Virus genome (UHGV): UHGV-1974775
Length of the DNA stretch: 4,503 bases
Source: a virus
Direction: 5' to 3' (one strand)
The notes beneath the pieces are model-generated. The model ran no database searches and was not told the DNA's origin. It was given only the letters and a program-made list of their open reading frames with translations. The translations under genes were made by a program, and so were the position numbers. Of the stretch, positions 1 to 4,503 are shown piece after piece; the first letter of the stretch is position 1; every line of letters starts with the position of its first letter.

Positions 1-617
1 AAAAAATCGTAGCCAATTCCTGGCCTGTTACTCATAGCTGAAAACTCGGGTAGGCGATGTCCATAATGCTCCTCTGAACGGGAACCGGTGACTTTTTTAA
101 CACAGTATCGCGCCACATATGCAGCCGACTCAAAGCTAAAGCCAGCAATAACAGAAAAGCCAAAAGTCCAGCATCTTTCAAGAAGCGAAGACCTAAATAA
201 ATTAAATCTTCCAGCTTTATGCAGTGTCTTATCCGGAAAATCATATCCAAAAATAATCGCATGATAATGCGGTCGCTCTAATTTAGAGCCATATTCACCA
301 CAGCCGAAAAAACGAATTGAAATATCATCAACAGACAAAGCCTTACGCAAACGCTTCATAAAATCGGTGAAATGTTTACGAACGAGAGTTCCGCCTTCGG
401 GTAAATTCTCAGGCGAATAAGTCAGGGTGATAAAACAATTGTGATCGTGCATGTGGGCTTCATGAACACAGCGGGTCGCCCAGTCACGAGAATGGGCAAG
501 ACGGCAACCGATGCACTGACCGCAAGGCAACTGAATGAATTTAGCGCCACGTGACGGCGTGAAAAAAATCTTCCCCGATGGCATCTGGTACGCGTTTAAC
601 GGACGGGTACAAGCCAT
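1..617 (-). CDS. VP4: Replication initiation protein (HUH rolling-circle endonuclease), 5' portion (codons 1-205 plus two bases of codon 206); continues at 4257..4503 across the circular junction
   Basis: Hand translation of the minus strand from ATG at 617..615 gives MACTRPLNAYQMPSGKIFFTPSRGAKFIQLPCGQCIGCRLAHSRDWATRCVHEAHMHDHNCFITLTYSPENL...RPHYHAIIFGYDF...SAAYVARYCVKKVTGS...NRPGIGYDF, with no stop before position 1. It carries the three rolling-circle motifs: motif I CFITLTY (417..437), HUH motif PHYHAIIFG (246..272) and the two-tyrosine motif YVARYCVKK (93..119; compare phiX174 gene A YVAKYVNKK). SD GGAGG at 628..624, 6 nt before the ATG. Not in the ORF track because no stop falls inside the window. 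Confidence 0.88.
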   Translation of the reverse strand, partial: MACTRPLNAYQMPSGKIFFTPSRGAKFIQLPCGQCIGCRLAHSRDWATRCVHEAHMHDHNCFITLTYSPENLPEGGTLVRKHFTDFMKRLRKALSVDDISIRFFGCGEYGSKLERPHYHAIIFGYDFPDKTLHKAGRFNLFRSSLLERCWTFGFSVIAGFSFESAAYVARYCVKKVTGSRSEEHYGHRLPEFSAMSNRPGIGYDF

Positions 618-638
618 GACACACCTCCATAATTCACG

Positions 639-660
639 TATGCGCACCTTGGTGCGCATA
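639..660. repeat. Perfect inverted repeat TATGCGCACC-tt-GGTGCGCATA; its right arm is the XerC-binding arm of the dif-like site
   Basis: rc(639..648) = 651..660 exactly (10 nt arms, GC-rich). It would fold into a hairpin in the ssDNA genome and in the rep 5' leader, about 10 nt upstream of the rep SD. Confidence 0.7.
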
Positions 661-678
661 ATGTATATTTAGTTTAAC
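651..678. other. dif-like XerC/XerD recombination site (putative attP for host-Xer-mediated integration)
   Basis: Plus strand GGTGCGCATAA-TGTATA-TTTAGTTTAAC compared with canonical E. coli dif GGTGCGCATAA-TGTATA-TTATGTTAAAT (as I recall it): XerC arm 11/11, central region 6/6, XerD arm 7/11, total 24/28. It lies in the VP8-rep intergenic region. Confidence 0.75.
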
Positions 679-852: not shown

Positions 853-1635
853 TTACCTCCTAGGGGTTACTCGGAAAAACAGGGGGGAAGAATCCCCCCT
901 TTGGTTTACGGACTTAGCACTATTAGAATCGCGAAAGCCAAAGCCATCAAGACCTGAAATACGACGTAACCAACTACCAATCGCATTACCTTGTCCGACA
1001 AACCCTTTCCCTTGAGAGTCATAATTAACCTTAAGTGATTGAGCACCAGTCGGTGTATTCAAATAATCAGCCAGAACCTTGTCCTGAACAGTTTGATACT
1101 GTGTTCTAATCCGCTGCGCAGAACTGAGGCCTGTCTGTGCTTCAATATTGGCACGACGAGAAGCCTCGGTCAAAACCTGCTGATTAATCAGATTCGACTG
1201 CGATCGCATGTTATCGGCACTCTGGATAGCCTGGTCAGCCTGAGCCGTTTTAAGACGCACATCAGCCGCGCTATTCGCAATCTGGTTACGTTGTAACGCA
1301 ATCTGAGACTCAATGCCTTCACGGGCAACCTTTTGCTGCTCACGCTTCGTCAGAGCGTCGAACGCGGCAACGGCAGAGTTAACCGCACCAGAATAATCGG
1401 CAGGGGCAGCCTGCTGAATACCGGAAGAACTGACGGAACCAAGACCACCGGAACCATTAACGGCCAGAATCGGGTTAAGACCTGCTTTTCGCAAATCCTG
1501 TACGCGGTACTGCATACCGTTTTTGGCCAAATCCATCGTTAACTTGTTCGCCTGAGCGGCGTTCTGCTGGGCAGAGTGGGCACCAAGAAGAGAACCGGCA
1601 ACGGAACCTACAGCACCTGCAATTGCTCCCCACAT
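853..1635 (-). CDS. VP2: Minor capsid / DNA pilot protein
   Basis: 260-aa ORF immediately downstream of VP1 on the same strand. It has a Gly/Ala/Ser-rich N-terminus, the motif YRVQDLRKAGLNPILAV (the AGLNP motif recalled from Microviridae pilot proteins) and a Gln/Ala-rich central region that looks coiled-coil-like. SD GAGGTG lies 5 nt upstream of the ATG at 1635. Confidence 0.78.
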   Translation of the reverse strand: MWGAIAGAVGSVAGSLLGAHSAQQNAAQANKLTMDLAKNGMQYRVQDLRKAGLNPILAVNGSGGLGSVSSSGIQQAAPADYSGAVNSAVAAFDALTKREQQKVAREGIESQIALQRNQIANSAADVRLKTAQADQAIQSADNMRSQSNLINQQVLTEASRRANIEAQTGLSSAQRIRTQYQTVQDKVLADYLNTPTGAQSLKVNYDSQGKGFVGQGNAIGSWLRRISGLDGFGFRDSNSAKSVNQRGDSSPLFFRVTPRR

Positions 1636-1649
1636 AATTTCACCTCATG

Positions 1650-1672
1650 AAAAAAAGGCCTCCGAAGAGGCC
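1650..1672 (-). terminator. Rho-independent terminator/attenuator between VP1 and VP2
   Basis: On the minus-strand transcript, 13 nt after the VP1 stop (TAA 1688..1686): GGCCUC-UUCG-GAGGCC (6-bp GC-rich stem 1657..1662/1667..1672 with a UUCG tetraloop) followed directly by seven U (1656..1650). The VP2 SD and ATG follow 14 nt later. Confidence 0.6.
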
Positions 1673-1685
1673 AAAGAGTTGGGTT

Positions 1686-3365
1686 TTAAAAATGGTCAAT
1701 AAGACCGGGTACTGAATAAACTGGCATAGGCCGCACACATTTCAGGTCAAAGAATGCATCCAGAATGAACTGAGGCTCGTCCTGAACGGCCAGAACACGA
1801 CTCATCGGTGGATTCTCTTCGATGAACTCCTGATTCAATGCGGGCAGAGAGTCGAACCGCTGGGCTAAATGCCACACATCGAGGGATTGCGGGTCTGTGG
1901 AACGTAATTTACCAGTAATCTGGGATGGACGATAGCGGTACTCCGCGTAACGTTCCTGATAGCCAAAGACTTCATCATCTTTAGCGTTGCCTTGCGCATA
2001 AATCTCCTTGTTAAGAATAGCCTGTTCGCCCAGGTGGGCCAGTGCAGGCCAGTAGAAATCAAAGCGGGTCTGACGGGAGAACATGCGCGGGATGCCTTGC
2101 TGATAGGTCAAATCTGCACGGACAGATACAAGACCAATGACAAAACAGTGCTCCACAAAAGAATGTGAAAAACCACGGTTAACACCACCGGAAACACCAT
2201 AAGCTGCGAGGTTACCTTGTGGGCTGGCATCGGTAGTCGCAGAGTTCTGAAGAACGGGATTGATATTTATATCGAACGAACCAGAGCCAAGATACTCAGG
2301 ACGCTGAACACGGGCATCAGGAGAAATGACGCCAAAATGACTGCGAATAATCTCAATGTATCGCGTACCACCGCGAGCATCACGCTCAAGCAGGCGCTGA
2401 AGCTGGAACGCCTGACGCAATGAGTTAATCGTGAGATTGTCAACAACTTCACCACCTGTCTTTTCCAAAGTAACCGGAGGTTTGCCCGGAAGGAAACCGG
2501 AAATAACGTCATAACGTCCCTGAACAGGAGATTCAGGCCAGTTAATACCATTCTGAAGGCCACCGCTCAAATAGAGACCTGTATCGGCGTCAAGACCACT
2601 ACGGGCAATATAGCCCGTACCAGCAACAGTCTGGCCGCCGGCGCCATAAGACTGCGTAAAGAACGCTAAACCATCCGGATATTCCGGATAATTCAACGAG
2701 TACGACGGCGGAACGCCTAAACCAATCTCAACACCTTCGCCTTTCTGAGGCCACGGAAGGGCACTTGTGAAGTAATCATGACGCTTGGCACGCTTACGCA
2801 GCGGGAAATTTGCGAGACCTGTTTCCGTCTCATCGCCAAGCGGAAGCGGGGCGGAATTAATCAGGTTTTCGTCACGATACCACTCGTTATAAATCAGGTT
2901 ATAAGCGCGGAACGGCAGGGCGCTTACGCTGATACCTTCGACACCTGTAGGAACACCAAAATAATCGGCAAGAGAGCCAACAGGGAAACCGCCAGCAGGG
3001 GCTGTAATCTGCGGAATCAAATAATCCGTAGAATCACCAGGGTTCTTCTGTTCTCCGTTGAATTTCTGCCAGTTATCCCAGACGAGGCGATAAGGTACAG
3101 AAAAATACTGAATATCCAGACGTAGATTATCCATGAAAGGAACCACGGGCGTGGAAAGACGCGCGAGAACACTCGTTTTAAGGTGGAACGTATCACCCGG
3201 CAAAGCCTCATCCAGAAACACGGGAATCAAATAACCAGCGTCAAAGGTGGTTTTATAACCAGAACTACGGTTAAAGACCGAACGCTGAATATTAGCACTC
3301 GGGATTACTGAAAAATTATGCTGACTTTTTGCATTACTAGGTACTTTACGACCGAATTTACTCAT
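1686..3365 (-). CDS. VP1: Major capsid protein
   Basis: 559-aa ORF. The N-terminal region (SVIPSANIQRSVFNRSSGYKTTFDAGYLIPVF...LARLSTPVVPFMDNLRLDIQYFSVPYRLVWDNWQKFNGEQKNPGDSTDYL...YFTSALPWPQKG) matches the conserved pattern of gokushovirus VP1 as I recall it from Chlamydia-phage-type capsid proteins. ATG at 3365 preceded by a G-rich SD (GAGGGGGG). It is the largest ORF and fills 37% of the genome. Confidence 0.95.
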   Translation of the reverse strand: MSKFGRKVPSNAKSQHNFSVIPSANIQRSVFNRSSGYKTTFDAGYLIPVFLDEALPGDTFHLKTSVLARLSTPVVPFMDNLRLDIQYFSVPYRLVWDNWQKFNGEQKNPGDSTDYLIPQITAPAGGFPVGSLADYFGVPTGVEGISVSALPFRAYNLIYNEWYRDENLINSAPLPLGDETETGLANFPLRKRAKRHDYFTSALPWPQKGEGVEIGLGVPPSYSLNYPEYPDGLAFFTQSYGAGGQTVAGTGYIARSGLDADTGLYLSGGLQNGINWPESPVQGRYDVISGFLPGKPPVTLEKTGGEVVDNLTINSLRQAFQLQRLLERDARGGTRYIEIIRSHFGVISPDARVQRPEYLGSGSFDININPVLQNSATTDASPQGNLAAYGVSGGVNRGFSHSFVEHCFVIGLVSVRADLTYQQGIPRMFSRQTRFDFYWPALAHLGEQAILNKEIYAQGNAKDDEVFGYQERYAEYRYRPSQITGKLRSTDPQSLDVWHLAQRFDSLPALNQEFIEENPPMSRVLAVQDEPQFILDAFFDLKCVRPMPVYSVPGLIDHF

Positions 3366-3392: not shown

Positions 3393-3421
3393 ACTATACA
3401 AACCACTGTATAAACTGACAC
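3393..3421 (-). promoter_or_regulatory. Weak candidate promoter upstream of VP1: -35 GTGTCA (3421..3416), 17-nt spacer, -10 TATAGT (3398..3393)
   Basis: By-eye match on the minus strand: -35 matches TTGACA at 4/6 and -10 matches TATAAT at 5/6, with a 17-nt spacer; about 28 nt upstream of the VP1 ATG. Confidence 0.25.
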
Positions 3422-3465
3422 CTTTTTACAGGCTTCGTGGGAGCCGCCTGTAAGTTTCGGTGTCA

Positions 3466-3502
3466 CCTGGCACAGTTACATCAAGTAGGGCACTGTGCCA
3501 GG
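3466..3502. repeat. Perfect 11-bp inverted repeat (stem-loop) in the VP3-VP1 intergenic region
   Basis: CCTGGCACAGT (3466..3476) pairs with ACTGTGCCAGG (3492..3502); loop of 15 nt (3477..3491). Located 9 nt downstream of the VP3 stop on the coding strand, with no U-run after it. Confidence 0.65.
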
Positions 3503-3510
3503 CTGCAGGG

Positions 3511-4020
3511 TCAGGAGCCGTCTGCAGGTTTCGCGGGTTCAGAACCCGCATTTGATGCTTTATTCACATCAGCACCGGAACGCTCCCGCGGGGACGCCGG
3601 AGCAGGTTCCGACTCGCGAACCTTCGGTTCGGTCGCCGAAACCTCTCCGCCGCTCAACAATCCAAGCTCACGGGCTTTATCCCAGTTCGCCGGATCACTC
3701 ATGAATTCAACGTACTGTTTAACGTTATTACCAAACATCGCGCGAGTAGCGGACGGCAGGCTATTAAAGTCGTCGTTAACGTCGTCAATTAAAGCCATTG
3801 CGTCCACATAATCGGTAATCGCGGATGCATCGTAAAATTCAGCACGTTGAGTACTGGTAAACACGGTCGTGTCTCCCGTTCTTATCGCACGCTCAACAAT
3901 CTTATTGATGTCGCACTCATCGCGGAAATGCTGCTGGGTCATCGTGGGTTCTTTGAACTCGATGCCGGGCGACGGTGGCGGGTCATAGCGGGTATGGAAC
4001 TTACGCTTCGATGTACGCAT
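3511..4020 (-). CDS. VP3: Internal scaffolding protein
   Basis: 169-aa ORF with motifs I recognise from gokushovirus VP3 proteins: FRDECDINKIV near the N-terminus and RAMFGNNVKQYVEFMSDPANWDKARELGL later. ATG at 4020 with AAGGA 8 nt upstream. The C-terminal ~45 aa form a Pro/Ser/Ala/Glu-rich low-complexity tail. Confidence 0.8.
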   Translation of the reverse strand: MRTSKRKFHTRYDPPPSPGIEFKEPTMTQQHFRDECDINKIVERAIRTGDTTVFTSTQRAEFYDASAITDYVDAMALIDDVNDDFNSLPSATRAMFGNNVKQYVEFMSDPANWDKARELGLLSGGEVSATEPKVRESEPAPASPRERSGADVNKASNAGSEPAKPADGS

Positions 4021-4270
4021 TTTCAGAATCCTTCAGAAAGGCCGGAGTAGCTTCACAAACATAAACACGGTCAACGCTGACCGGAATAAGCTGTTCACCC
4101 TCAAAATCAAACGAAGTTACGCGATACAACGCAAAATCAGTACGCTGCATGCGGTTACAAAACGCATGCAATTGACCTTTCGCAATACCATCATGCTGAG
4201 CCATAAACATATAAACATCAGCATTAATCAGCTTGTCGTGAAATACATAAACTGCATCAGAGTGAGCCAT
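4001..4270 (-). CDS. Hypothetical 89-aa protein at the position occupied by VP5 in gokushoviruses (between rep and scaffold genes)
   Basis: ATG at 4270..4268 preceded by SD GAGGA with a 9-nt spacer (rc of 4271..4290 = aatgatGAGGAaattagaaa). The start overlaps the rep stop by 14 nt and the 3' end overlaps the VP3 start by 20 nt, a compact arrangement typical of Microviridae. I do not recognise the sequence itself, so the call is positional. Confidence 0.5.
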   Translation of the reverse strand: MAHSDAVYVFHDKLINADVYMFMAQHDGIAKGQLHAFCNRMQRTDFALYRVTSFDFEGEQLIPVSVDRVYVCEATPAFLKDSENAYIEA

Positions 4271-4503
4271 TTTCTAATTTCCTCATCATTCGCTGGAATT
4301 TAACCAGATTAAATTTATCTAAATCCTGCAAACGCCACGGGTCTAATACCTGAGCATTTAACTGGCGCTTTTCTTTATTTTGCTGCAACTTTTCCAAATC
4401 ACAGCCTGATAATAACTTGTCATAATAGCGGGGCGGTTTTATCTGACGACCGCCACGACCAATACACGCATCTGAATTAACTATGTCATCGTAATACTCC
4501 ATA
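4257..4503 (-). CDS. VP4: Replication initiation protein, 3' portion (last 81 codons plus stop), contiguous in frame with 1..617 if the molecule is circular
   Basis: ORF-track 81-aa ORF (MEYYDDIVNSDACIGRGGRQIKPPRYYDKLL...). Its first codon (4502..4500) sits immediately after the junction codon formed by positions 2,1,4503 (aaa on the plus strand = TTT, Phe), so the reading frame runs ...GIGYDFF-MEYYDD... with no stop. The combined protein is 287 aa. Confidence 0.72.
   Translation of the reverse strand, partial: MEYYDDIVNSDACIGRGGRQIKPPRYYDKLLSGCDLEKLQQNKEKRQLNAQVLDPWRLQDLDKFNLVKFQRMMRKLENGSL

What the first reader, a model, noticed from the sequence alone, without database searches (positions are those of the whole stretch)
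3466..3502. Perfect 11-bp stem-loop in the VP3-VP1 intergenic region: candidate complementary-strand origin or RNA processing/stability element
The longest perfect inverted repeat in the genome (11-bp stem, 15-nt loop) sits in the 145-nt non-coding gap between scaffold and capsid genes. It lacks a following U-run, so it is not a classical terminator. ssDNA phages need a structured site in the virion strand for host priming of complementary-strand synthesis, as in G4 and phiX174, and an intergenic hairpin is the usual form. Alternatively it could stabilise the 3' end of the upstream transcript or act as a packaging signal.
Basis: inference. Interest (0 to 1): 0.45.

Follow-up and report, generated by a model that had tools for sequence, protein, structure and literature searches.

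The report
Likely gokushovirus viral-strand origin hairpin
The hairpin is real and is one copy of a stem-loop found in nearly every gokushovirus-type small ssDNA phage; its loop carries the ACTTG/AT sequence that phiX174's replication protein cuts, so it is most likely where the phage's own Rep protein nicks the DNA to start rolling-circle replication, not a host priming site or an RNA signal.

Summary
In detail: a perfect 11-bp stem with a 15-nt loop at 3466-3502, the longest in this 4503-nt Enterogokushovirus genome (all genes on the window's minus strand); 1.7% of shuffles reach it.

It is not lineage-specific. A covariance model finds one copy per genome in 77 of 80 genomes chosen only by Rep (VP4) similarity. 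Chp2, Chp1, phiMH2K and SpV4 carry variants. The stem covaries (10 of 11 pairs change on both sides, almost only Watson-Crick). The loop YTACTTGATGTA and a 3' box TGACACC are near-invariant, even where Rep is about 40% identical.

The loop holds ACTTG^AT, the phiX174 gene-A cleavage site, and the 30-nt core aligns with the phiX174 ori(+) in register (17/30). VP4 is an HUH Rep homologous to protein A.

In about 4% of genomes the element is inverted in place. That excludes an mRNA role, and in 5 of 7 such genomes the T-rich strand bias flips with it.

Best reading (about 0.7): the viral-strand origin, with the VP4 nick site in a hairpin loop. I found no prior description in the searchable literature. 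Nicking is untested.

The parts
3466..3502 (-). Hairpin H1 as reported. On the coding (minus) strand: 5' arm CCTGGCACAGT (3502-3492), loop GCCCTACTTGATGTA (3491-3477), 3' arm ACTGTGCCAGG (3476-3466). The universal core of the stem is the upper 8 bp; the lower 3 bp are lineage-specific.
   Evidence: Covariation in 82 relatives: alignment A2 columns 19-26 paired with 45-52. Covariance model R1 scores 69.6 bits on the minus strand against 12.7 bits on the plus strand.
3459..3488 (-). 30-nt conserved core CTACTTGATGTAACTGTGCCAGGTGACACC: the 3' two-thirds of the loop, the 3' arm and the 3' flank. It is collinear with the phiX174 30-nt ori(+) CAACTTGATATTAATAACACTATAGACCAC (17/30 identical, no gaps).
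   Evidence: Identical in genomes whose VP4 is only 37-40% identical to the window's. phiX174 ori verified in NC_001422 at 4299-4328. A weight matrix from the gokushovirus element ranks the true phiX ori 2nd-15th of 10,772 positions.
3481..3482 (-). Predicted VP4 cleavage position: between G3482 and A3481 of CTACTTG^ATG on the minus strand, by analogy with G4305^A4306 of phiX174. In the predicted DNA fold these bases lie in an apical TTGAT pentaloop closed by a TAC/GTA mini-stem.
   Evidence: Inference from the sequence match and the fold. Not tested experimentally.
3459..3465 (-). Conserved 3' box TGACACC, immediately after the stem. Candidate Rep-binding ('key') sequence; compare AGACCAC at the same positions of the phiX ori.
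   Evidence: Near-invariant columns in A2; information content 1.4-1.6 bits per position. Its function is inferred.
3503..3527 (-). Companion hairpin H0, abutting H1 on its 5' side: CTGCAG (3527-3522) pairs with CTGCAG (3508-3503). The 13-nt loop contains the VP3 stop codon (3513-3511). Candidate accessory element or complementary-strand origin.
   Evidence: Folds. Compensatory changes among enterobacterial relatives: CTGAAG/CTTCAG, CCTCCAGC/GCTGGAGG, CCCGAAA/TTTCGGG. Across 82 genomes the 40 nt upstream fold to -7.3 kcal/mol against -3.5 for shuffles (p about 1e-13), and the structure stays on the 5' side of the element in the inverted genomes examined.
3415..3465 (-). Hairpin H2. The outer stem TGACACC (3465-3459) / GGTGTCA (3421-3415) encloses the inner stem TTACAGGC (3453-3446) / GCCTGTAA (3433-3426). 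Lineage-variable accessory.
   Evidence: A complement of the TGACACC box lies within 90 nt downstream in 22 of 82 genomes, against 7 of 82 in an upstream control.
3393..3421 (-). Sigma-70-like promoter candidate for VP1 (GTGTCA, 17 nt, TATAGT). Its -35 hexamer is the 3' arm of H2.
   Evidence: Consensus scan only, 9 of 12 matches. Not otherwise tested.
3511..4020 (-). VP3 internal scaffolding protein gene. The element sits directly after this gene in 71 of 76 direct-orientation genomes.
   Evidence: Pfam Chlamy_scaf, E = 6.5e-35; gene-order survey.
1..659 (-). 5' part of VP4 (Rep), which wraps the window ends and continues at 4503-4257. HUH rolling-circle initiator with RPHYHAI and AAYVARY motifs; the presumed protein partner of the hairpin.
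   Evidence: Pfam REP_ORF2-G2P, E = 5.6e-21. hhalign against phiX174 protein A over motif 1 to HUH: probability 83%, E = 9.5e-6.
4257..4503 (-). 3' part of VP4 (Rep), continuing from 659-1 across the ends of the circular genome.
   Evidence: ORF 4257-4502 (MEYYDDIV...) is contiguous with the VP4 sequence of EC6098, 96% identical.

Best explanation
The hairpin is the viral-strand (plus) origin of rolling-circle replication of this gokushovirus, that is, the recognition and nick site of its HUH initiator VP4.

Proposed mechanism. Steps 1, 4 and the conservation in step 3 are shown; the rest is inferred.
1. On the coding strand, an 8-11-bp stem presents the conserved loop YTACTTGATGTA.
2. In supercoiled replicative-form DNA the inverted repeat extrudes or melts. 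This plays the role of the AT-rich spacer of the phiX174 origin.
3. VP4 binds the conserved 3' arm and TGACACC box and cleaves CTACTTG^ATG (between window 3482 and 3481, minus strand). One tyrosine of its YVARY motif becomes linked to the 5' phosphate.
4. The strand that carries the element is therefore the one displaced, re-circularised at the regenerated site, and packaged.

The small hairpin abutting it on the 5' side (3503-3527) belongs to the same module. It may be an accessory element or the complementary-strand origin.
For: 1. Family-wide, single-copy, strand-specific element. The best ungapped match to the 30-nt core is 20/30 or better in about 70 of 80 VP4-selected genomes, while shuffles never exceed 19. 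Model R1 hits 77 of 80 at E <= 1e-3, once per genome unit. 329 phage records, essentially all Microviridae, match by blastn. The 18-mer core occurs in at least 119 IMG/VR contigs, all of microvirus size. Variants occur in Chp2, Chp1, phiMH2K and SpV4.
2. The structure is selected. Ten of 11 stem pairs show changes on both sides; 117 doubly changed cells against 43 +/- 5 in shuffles and 11-28 in slid registers. Pairs 20-51, 21-50 and 22-49 have 34 double changes and no one-sided (G.T) changes, as expected for a DNA stem.
3. Sequence is selected as well. The 30-nt core is identical in genomes with VP4 37-40% and VP1 46-54% identical. Among enterobacterial relatives only the core is invariant.
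4. Link to a known nick site. The loop holds ACTTGAT, the only copy in the window. phiX174 is cut at CAACTTG^ATA inside a 30-nt ori(+) that G4 shares 30/30 and alpha3 28/30. The two 30-mers align in register, 17/30. The gokushovirus matrix ranks the true phiX and G4 origins 2nd-15th of about 11,000 positions.
5. The cognate enzyme is homologous. VP4 is an HUH Rep that aligns with protein A. Rep monophyly of the two subfamilies is published (PMC6668415).
6. It acts at the DNA level and defines a strand. In 7 of 187 genomes the element is inverted in place while all genes keep their orientation. In 5 of those 7 the four-fold-site AT skew of the coding strand is reversed (+0.25 to +0.75) against -0.39 +/- 0.32 in 180 direct genomes. 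In a G+C-matched comparison p = 0.0017. The flipped segment is small: the whole gap is 157 nt in L083.
7. The same loop occurs in phages or prophages of Enterobacteriaceae, Desulfovibrionaceae, Chlamydia, Bdellovibrio and Spiroplasma. That fits recognition by a phage protein better than by host priming machinery (inference).
Against: - Nothing here shows cleavage; the assignment is comparative.
- Similarity to the phiX origin is partial (17/30). The phiX decamer at 2 or fewer mismatches is not enriched in the window (3 hits, about 4 expected). By raw identity the window core's best hit in phiX174 is elsewhere (19/30 in gene H).
- Unlike phiX174, the site is intergenic, GC-rich and hairpinned.
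- The element is linked to the 3' end of VP3 across two gene orders, not to the VP4 gene. One might not expect that for a Rep-origin module.
- Two inverted genomes (L076, L151) do not show reversed skew. The number of independent inversions is small (3-5), and four-fold skew is also shaped by codon usage.
- A complementary-strand origin would also be strand-specific and would also have to lie on the packaged strand.
- R1 was built from the same sequences it was then run on.
- Older subscription papers on Chp2, phiMH2K and SpV4 could not be read.
Confidence: 0.72

Rival explanations
1. Complementary-strand (minus) origin, the first reader's main proposal: in the incoming ssDNA the hairpin is recognised by host primase, the primosome or RNA polymerase to prime synthesis of the second strand.
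For: It is a stable intergenic hairpin in the presumed virion strand. It is conserved, covarying and strand-specific, and the skew results fit equally well with an element that must sit on the packaged strand. Precedents exist: G4's record annotates ori(-) in the F-G intergenic region, and phiX174's ori(-) is an intergenic hairpin bound by PriA. A recent paper interprets conserved hairpins of other small microviruses this way, with explicit caution (PMC9865509).
Against: - The conserved part is the loop sequence that matches the protein-A cleavage site, not only the structure.
- The same loop is kept in phages of hosts from different phyla, whose priming systems differ (inference).
- If this were only ori(-), the separate ori(+) would have had to invert together with it within a gap as small as 157 nt, and that gap has no other conserved element.
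- R1 finds nothing comparable at the G4 or phiX ori(-).
- The abutting hairpin H0 is a better candidate for this role.
Confidence: 0.12
2. Dual or composite origin: the H0-H1(-H2) hairpin cluster holds both origins side by side, as in the intergenic region of filamentous phages. H1 would serve in nicking and would also contribute to priming or to packaging recognition.
For: The whole 121-nt cluster is far more structured than chance (z = -5.9). H0 is general across the family and inverts together with H1. In phiX174 packaging is coupled to the plus origin (my own knowledge, not checked here). VP4 falls in a Pfam family named for filamentous-phage gene II protein.
Against: There is no direct evidence for any second function. 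H2 is present in only about a quarter of genomes.
Confidence: 0.1
3. mRNA-level element: a transcription terminator, 3'-end stabiliser or RNase processing site for the VP4-VP5-VP3 transcript.
For: It lies directly after the VP3 stop in 71 of 76 direct-orientation genomes. It is very stable as RNA (-20.2 kcal/mol).
Against: - There is no U tract, and the terminator scan does not list it, although the same genome has classical terminators after VP1 and VP2.
- In 7 of 187 genomes the element lies on the strand opposite all genes with its loop sequence intact.
- Covariation is almost purely Watson-Crick, with no G.U intermediates at the most variable pairs.
- Loop invariance across the family is not a terminator property.
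Confidence: 0.03
4. Chance palindrome, or a recently transferred mobile hairpin with no function in this genome.
For: A single 11-bp perfect stem arises in 1.7% of shuffles. 44 of 45 nt are identical to an otherwise very distant pequenovirus, which could suggest transfer.
Against: It is near-universal, single-copy and positionally conserved, with graded sequence variation and compensatory stem changes across 80+ genomes.
Confidence: 0.01

Closest known systems
phiX174-type 30-nt viral-strand origin (gene A protein recognition and cleavage site) of Bullavirinae
   Same: Same virus family and homologous HUH initiators with a Y-x-x-x-Y motif. Shared ACTTG^AT at the start of a 30-nt block that is near-invariant within each subfamily. 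Collinear layout: nick motif, then 11-13 nt, then a xGACxxC box. It lies on the coding strand in 96% of genomes.
   Different: Only 17 of 30 positions match. The phiX origin lies inside gene A, has an AT-rich spacer and forms no hairpin. Here the site is intergenic, directly after VP3, and the spacer is the GC-rich 3' arm of a covarying stem that places the nick motif in a loop. Cleavage has been shown for phiX174 and not here.
Stem-loop origins of other HUH-Rep replicons (nonanucleotide hairpin of circoviruses, geminiviruses and nanoviruses; double-strand origins of rolling-circle plasmids)
   Same: A conserved nick motif in the loop of a hairpin whose stem covaries, one copy per genome, with a conserved flanking box as a candidate Rep-binding site. 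In many relatives the loop closes to the 9-mer YTACTTGAT, with the predicted cut between bases 7 and 8, the position cut in the CRESS nonanucleotide (that position is from my own knowledge).
   Different: The loop sequence and Rep family differ (VP4 has no helicase domain). No iterated repeats were detected; there is only a single TGACACC box, with an inverted partner in about 27% of genomes.
Complementary-strand origins of ssDNA coliphages (G4 primase site, phiX174 PriA assembly site)
   Same: Intergenic hairpins in the virion strand next to capsid genes.
   Different: Those sites are recognised by host proteins, are not conserved between phiX174 and G4, and carry no Rep cleavage motif. The present element is conserved in sequence across phages of unrelated hosts.

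Membership tests
phiX174-type (Bullavirinae) 30-nt ori(+) | The conserved 30-mer CAACTTGATATTAATAACACTATAGACCAC | tested here: not met
   17 of 30 identical in an ungapped alignment. G4 matches 30/30 and alpha3 28/30. The gokushovirus weight matrix ranks the true origins 2nd-39th of about 11,000 positions, so the element is related but not the same sequence family.
phiX174-type (Bullavirinae) 30-nt ori(+) | Cleavage motif ACTTG^AT on the viral strand | tested here: met
   ACTTGAT occurs once in the window, at 3486-3480 on the minus strand, inside the hairpin loop. CTTG is kept in all cultured gokushoviruses examined. The cleavage itself was not tested.
phiX174-type (Bullavirinae) 30-nt ori(+) | Located inside the initiator gene, with an AT-rich spacer and no hairpin | tested here: not met
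   In phiX174 the rep_origin at 4306 lies inside gene A. Here the site is in the VP3-VP1 gap, and the spacer is a GC-rich stem arm.
phiX174-type (Bullavirinae) 30-nt ori(+) | Cognate HUH initiator with two catalytic tyrosines | tested here: met
   VP4 has RPHYHAI and AAYVARY. Pfam REP_ORF2-G2P. hhalign against protein A: probability 83%, E = 9.5e-6.
Stem-loop plus origins of HUH-Rep replicons | Hairpin maintained by compensatory substitutions | tested here: met
   10 of 11 pairs have changes on both sides; 82.5% of cells are paired against 26-38% in slid registers.
Stem-loop plus origins of HUH-Rep replicons | Invariant nick motif in the loop; one copy per genome | tested here: met
   Invariant and near-invariant columns fall in the loop. 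There is one R1 hit per genome unit, with double hits only in concatemeric or terminally redundant contigs.
Stem-loop plus origins of HUH-Rep replicons | The element lies on the strand that is displaced and packaged | tested here: inconclusive
   T-richness at four-fold sites follows the element strand in 180 direct genomes and in 5 of 7 inverted genomes, but not in L076 or L151. The strand in virions was not determined.
Stem-loop plus origins of HUH-Rep replicons | Site-specific cleavage and joining by the Rep protein | not testable with these tools
   Needs purified VP4 or mapping of the RF II nick.
Complementary-strand origins (G4 / phiX174 / Ff types) | Hairpin(s) in the packaged strand in a non-coding region | tested here: met
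   but this feature is shared with plus origins.
Complementary-strand origins (G4 / phiX174 / Ff types) | Recognition by host priming proteins, so the sequence is expected to track the host and not the phage Rep | tested here: not met
   The same loop motif occurs in phages or prophages of Enterobacteriaceae, Desulfovibrionaceae, Chlamydia, Bdellovibrio and Spiroplasma. The expectation itself is an inference.
Complementary-strand origins (G4 / phiX174 / Ff types) | Primer synthesis starts at the site on SSB-coated ssDNA | not testable with these tools
   Needs an in vitro priming assay.
Intrinsic (Rho-independent) terminator | GC-rich hairpin followed by a U tract, oriented with transcription | tested here: not met
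   No T run follows the stem; the scan lists terminators after VP1 and VP2 but not this hairpin. The element is inverted relative to the genes in 7 of 187 genomes.
Any Rfam RNA family | Match to a curated covariance model | tested here: not met
   No hit overlaps 3400-3560 even at E <= 10.

The most novel reading that the evidence does not exclude
The hairpin is the determinant of which strand a gokushovirus packages. Because the module can flip in place, a minority of microviruses (about 4% here, for example the L023/L026/L039 clade) would package the strand antisense to all their genes. That would make them negative-sense members of a family regarded as uniformly positive-sense. Their coding strands show the mirror-image base bias (T only 6-8% of four-fold sites).
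Probability: 0.4. Interest if true: 0.8.

Novelty: new variant of a known kind. Interest (0 to 1): 0.62.

Why it matters
Gokushoviruses are among the most abundant ssDNA phages in gut, marine and soil viromes. As far as the literature I could search shows, their origin of replication has not been defined. The EC6098 paper, large genome surveys and recent reviews do not mention this element.

A defined plus origin would:
- give a natural zero coordinate and strand convention for thousands of metagenomic genomes;
- allow design of phagemids or mini-replicons for the culturable E. coli system EC6098;
- explain how the phiX174 origin relates to the hairpin origins of other HUH replicons (same nick motif, with a hairpin in place of the AT-rich spacer);
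- make testable the idea that ori inversion switches the packaged strand.

It also cautions against the default reading of conserved microvirus hairpins as complementary-strand origins.

Tried and rejected
- **Rfam:** a scan of the whole window at E <= 10 found nothing at the hairpin.
- **Terminator reading:** rejected, because there is no T run and classical terminators exist elsewhere in the genome.
- **Sigma-54 promoter (TGGCAC in the 5' arm):** rejected by eye, because the -12 element is absent at the required spacing.
- **Raw-identity scan of phiX174 with the window's 30-mer:** the top hit was in gene H (19/30), not the origin, so I switched to a conservation-weighted matrix.
- **phiX decamer in the window:** not significant on its own.
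- **Mobile or transferred hairpin** (suggested by 44/45 nt identity with a pequenovirus): rejected after seeing graded variation and covariation across the family.
- **Genome-contig scan:** about 11 of 25 hits (Yersinia similis, Lachnospiraceae, Thioalkalivibrio and others) have no hairpin context and no phage genes. They match the number of chance 18-mers expected, so I did not count them.
- **Downstream complement of TGACACC:** enriched (22/82 against 7/82) but not universal, so it is not part of the core element.
- **Four-fold GC skew:** does not separate inverted from direct genomes (p = 0.2).
- **G+C content as a confounder of the AT-skew result:** checked and rejected.
- **L128** (two element copies with no phage genes): examined briefly and left as a probable decaying remnant.
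- **Original Chp2 and phiMH2K genome papers:** not held in the library, so an earlier description in them cannot be excluded.

Full report
**What the window is.** The 4503-nt window is a complete circular gokushovirus genome, 92% identical to Escherichia phage EC6098 (genus Enterogokushovirus) and 87% to Microvirus mar4. All genes are on the window's minus strand:
- VP4 (Rep) wraps the ends: 659-1, then 4503-4257.
- VP5: 4001-4270.
- VP3 scaffold: 3511-4020.
- VP1 capsid: 1686-3365.
- VP2: 853-1635.
- A 39-aa basic VP8: 735-851.

These assignments rest. The coding sense is therefore the reverse complement of the sequence as displayed.

**The observation.** The arms 3466-3476 and 3492-3502 form a perfect 11-bp stem around a 15-nt loop. 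This is the longest perfect inverted repeat in the genome. A stem that long arises in 1.7% of dinucleotide shuffles. The 37-mer folds far better than shuffles, both as DNA (-12.4 kcal/mol, z = -5.5) and as RNA. It lies in the 145-nt VP3-VP1 gap, and no T run follows it.

**First surprise.** A megablast of the genome against GenBank phages returned three very distant microviruses: an Eel River methane-seep pequenovirus and two woodrat-faeces viruses. They matched only window 3459-3502, the hairpin itself, at 95-98% identity. Their Rep and capsid proteins are only 37-41% and 46-50% identical to the window's. In all of them the match is intergenic and on the gene strand. An exact 23-mer scan of IMG/VR added 15 microvirus-sized contigs.

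Read on the coding strand, the 30 nt CTACTTGATGTAACTGTGCCAGGTGACACC (window 3488 to 3459) are identical in all of these genomes. The 5' arm and the first loop bases vary. EC6098 has lost the top base pair, and one group has a G.G mismatch.

**How general it is.** A blastn of the 81-nt region hit 329 phage records, essentially all Microviridae, almost always on the gene strand and mostly in unannotated DNA. I then fetched 80 genomes selected only by VP4 similarity.
- About 70 have at least 20 of 30 matches to the core; shuffles never exceed 19.
- A covariance model built from 82 non-redundant copies (A2, R1) finds the element in 77 of 80 at E <= 1e-3, once per genome unit.
- Two more genomes have weaker variants.
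- The model scores the window at 69.6 bits on the minus strand and only 12.7 on the plus strand, so the element is strand-specific despite its palindromic stem.
- The cultured reference gokushoviruses carry versions in an intergenic gap: Chp2 (loop tCTACTTGATc), phiMH2K (CTACTTGTTGTAA), SpV4 (TTACTTGTTATA) and Chp1 (CTCTTG).
- An 18-mer of the core occurs in at least 119 IMG/VR contigs, all 3-8 kb.
- It also occurs in integrated prophages of Intestinirhabdus alba and a Desulfovibrionaceae MAG. About 11 further genome hits were chance matches with no hairpin and were discarded.

**Structure versus sequence.** On A2 the stem is strongly supported. 82.5% of cells are paired, against 26-38% when the register is slid. 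Ten of 11 pairs have changes on both sides. There are 117 doubly changed cells, against 43 +/- 5 in shuffles. The universal stem is the upper 8 bp; the lower 3 bp of the window's stem are lineage-specific. At the three most variable upper pairs there are 34 double changes and no one-sided (G.T) changes. That pattern is expected for a DNA hairpin more than for an RNA one.

The loop (YTACTTGATGTA), the top of the stem (ACTG) and a 3' box (TGACACC) are close to invariant. In many relatives the 5' arm extends (GCACAGTTAC/GTAACTGTGC), leaving the 9-nt loop YTACTTGAT. In the window a TAC/GTA mini-stem leaves an apical TTGAT.

**Link to a known mechanism.** The phiX174 viral-strand origin is CAACTTG^ATATTAATAACACTATAGACCAC (NC_001422, 4299-4328, rep_origin at 4306). 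Protein A cuts between G4305 and A4306 within a 30-nt ori(+) (preprint 10.64898/2026.07.25.740675). G4 shares it 30/30 and alpha3 28/30.

The gokushovirus core starts with CTACTTGATG and aligns with the phiX 30-mer without gaps at 17 of 30 positions. The matches include ACTTGAT at the start and GAC near the end. ACTTGAT occurs once in the window, in the loop. A conservation-weighted matrix from the gokushovirus element ranks the true phiX174 origin 2nd, 4th or 15th of 10,772 positions, depending on the columns used, and G4's 2nd to 13th.

On its own the phiX decamer is not enriched in the window, so this link is supported but not overwhelming. VP4 is an HUH initiator (RPHYHAI, AAYVARY; Pfam REP_ORF2-G2P) that aligns with protein A over motif 1 to HUH. 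Published work finds the Reps of the two subfamilies monophyletic (PMC6668415).

**Position and orientation.** The element lies directly after VP3 in 71 of 76 direct-orientation genomes. That holds whether the next block is VP8-VP4-VP5 (50 genomes) or VP1-VP2 (18, including the window).

In six of the first 82 genomes, and 7 of 187 overall, every gene keeps its orientation but the whole element lies on the other strand in the same gap, loop and 3' box included. This excludes a role in the mRNA.

It also allowed a test. At four-fold degenerate sites of VP1 and VP4, 180 direct genomes have a T-rich coding strand (AT skew -0.39 +/- 0.32; 87% negative; 5 at +0.25 or more). Five of the seven inverted genomes have +0.25 to +0.75. 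The L023/L026/L039 clade is more extreme than all but one of the 180 direct genomes. G+C content does not explain this: all 13 direct genomes with G+C >= 0.50 are negative, and p = 0.0017.

Two inverted genomes (L076, L151) are not reversed, and there are only three to five independent inversions. The result is therefore supportive, not decisive.

The flipped segment is small. The whole gap is 157 nt in L083. The element starts 2-16 nt after the VP3 stop in L038 and L076, and it overlaps the end of VP3 in the L023 clade. If the strand bias reports the packaged strand, the determinant of that strand lies within this segment. In rolling-circle replication that determinant is the plus-origin nick.

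**Surroundings.** H1 is the centre of a hairpin cluster (121 nt, z = -5.9).
- **H0 (3503-3527)** directly abuts its 5' side. It is a 6-bp hairpin whose loop holds the VP3 stop. It shows compensatory changes among enterobacterial relatives. An equivalent structure is general: the 40 nt upstream fold to -7.3 kcal/mol against -3.5 for shuffles (p about 1e-13). It stays on the element's 5' side in the inverted genomes examined.
- **H2 (3415-3465)** pairs the TGACACC box with GGTGTCA on the 3' side. That arrangement occurs in about a quarter of genomes. GGTGTCA overlaps a promoter-like site upstream of VP1.

**Conclusion.** The best-supported reading is that 3459-3502 is the gokushovirus plus origin. 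It is a hairpin-presented variant of the phiX174-type Rep cleavage site, with the predicted cut between 3482 and 3481 on the minus strand. It is not a member of the Bullavirinae 30-mer family in the strict sense: the sequence, location and spacer type differ. It appears to work like that origin and like the stem-loop origins of other HUH replicons.

RNA-level roles are disfavoured.

I found no description of this element in the open-access literature searched. The original genome papers of Chp2 and phiMH2K could not be read, so prior mention cannot be excluded. No cleavage, priming or packaging experiment is available.

Noticed in passing
window 3503-3527 (minus strand); A4; L020-L099: A small GC-rich hairpin (H0) directly abuts the 5' side of the main hairpin. 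In the window its loop contains the VP3 stop codon. It covaries among enterobacterial relatives, an equivalent structure is present in most of 82 genomes, and it stays on the element's 5' side in the inverted genomes examined. It is a candidate complementary-strand origin or accessory element.
   Followed up: partly
L023, L026, L039, L038, L076, L083, L151: In about 4% of genomes the origin-like module is inverted in place relative to all genes. In five of the seven the base bias at four-fold sites is the mirror image of the family norm, which suggests that these phages package the antisense strand.
   Followed up: partly
window 639-678 (plus strand as displayed): A dif-like motif GGTGCGCATAATGTATATTTAGTTTAAC sits next to a 10-bp palindrome (TATGCGCACC/GGTGCGCATA), overlapping the start of VP4. 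This corresponds to where the XerCD dif-motif is annotated in EC6098, so this genome is probably temperate as well.
   Followed up: no
window 1657-1672 and 881-900 (minus strand): Classical intrinsic terminators follow VP1 (GGCCTCTTCGGAGGCC, then T7) and VP2 (AGGGGGGATTCTTCCCCCCT, then GTTTTT). The genome does use canonical terminators, which makes the U-less hairpin after VP3 stand out.
   Followed up: no
window 3415-3465 and 3393-3421 (minus strand): The conserved TGACACC box pairs with GGTGTCA 36 nt downstream, enclosing an 8-bp hairpin. GGTGTCA also overlaps the -35-like hexamer of a promoter-like site (GTGTCA, 17 nt, TATAGT) upstream of VP1. A downstream complement of the box occurs in 22 of 82 genomes, against 7 of 82 in an upstream control.
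   Followed up: partly
L128 (Pseudomonadota MAG JBCCKS010000015) 2785-2844 and 4403-4462: Two direct copies of the element, about 85% identical over roughly 100 nt, lie 1.6 kb apart in a 49-kb bacterial contig with no recognisable microvirus genes nearby. The second copy has stem-breaking changes. It is probably a decaying prophage remnant, but it has the layout of a Rep-mobilisable mini-element.
   Followed up: partly
L020-L099 gene orders: There are two circular gene orders: ori-VP8-VP4-VP5-VP1-VP2-VP3 and ori-VP1-VP2-VP8-VP4-VP5-VP3. In both, the element stays attached to the 3' end of VP3 and not to the Rep gene. The rearrangement breakpoint therefore coincides with the origin-like module.
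   Followed up: partly
L120 and L126 (Intestinirhabdus alba NZ_WMJZ01000007): Two different gokushovirus prophages, each with its own copy of the element, lie about 3.7 kb apart on one scaffold (VP4 74% and 65% identical to the window's). They look like tandem integrations at one site.
   Followed up: no
L211: One IMG/VR microvirus contig has its VP1 and VP4 homologues on opposite strands. This is either an ambisense arrangement or a misassembly.
   Followed up: no
E. coli complete genomes: Only 7 of 5426 complete E. coli genomes carry this intergenic region (89-95% identical), all on chromosomes. There the stretch is annotated as 'hypothetical protein' or not at all.
   Followed up: no
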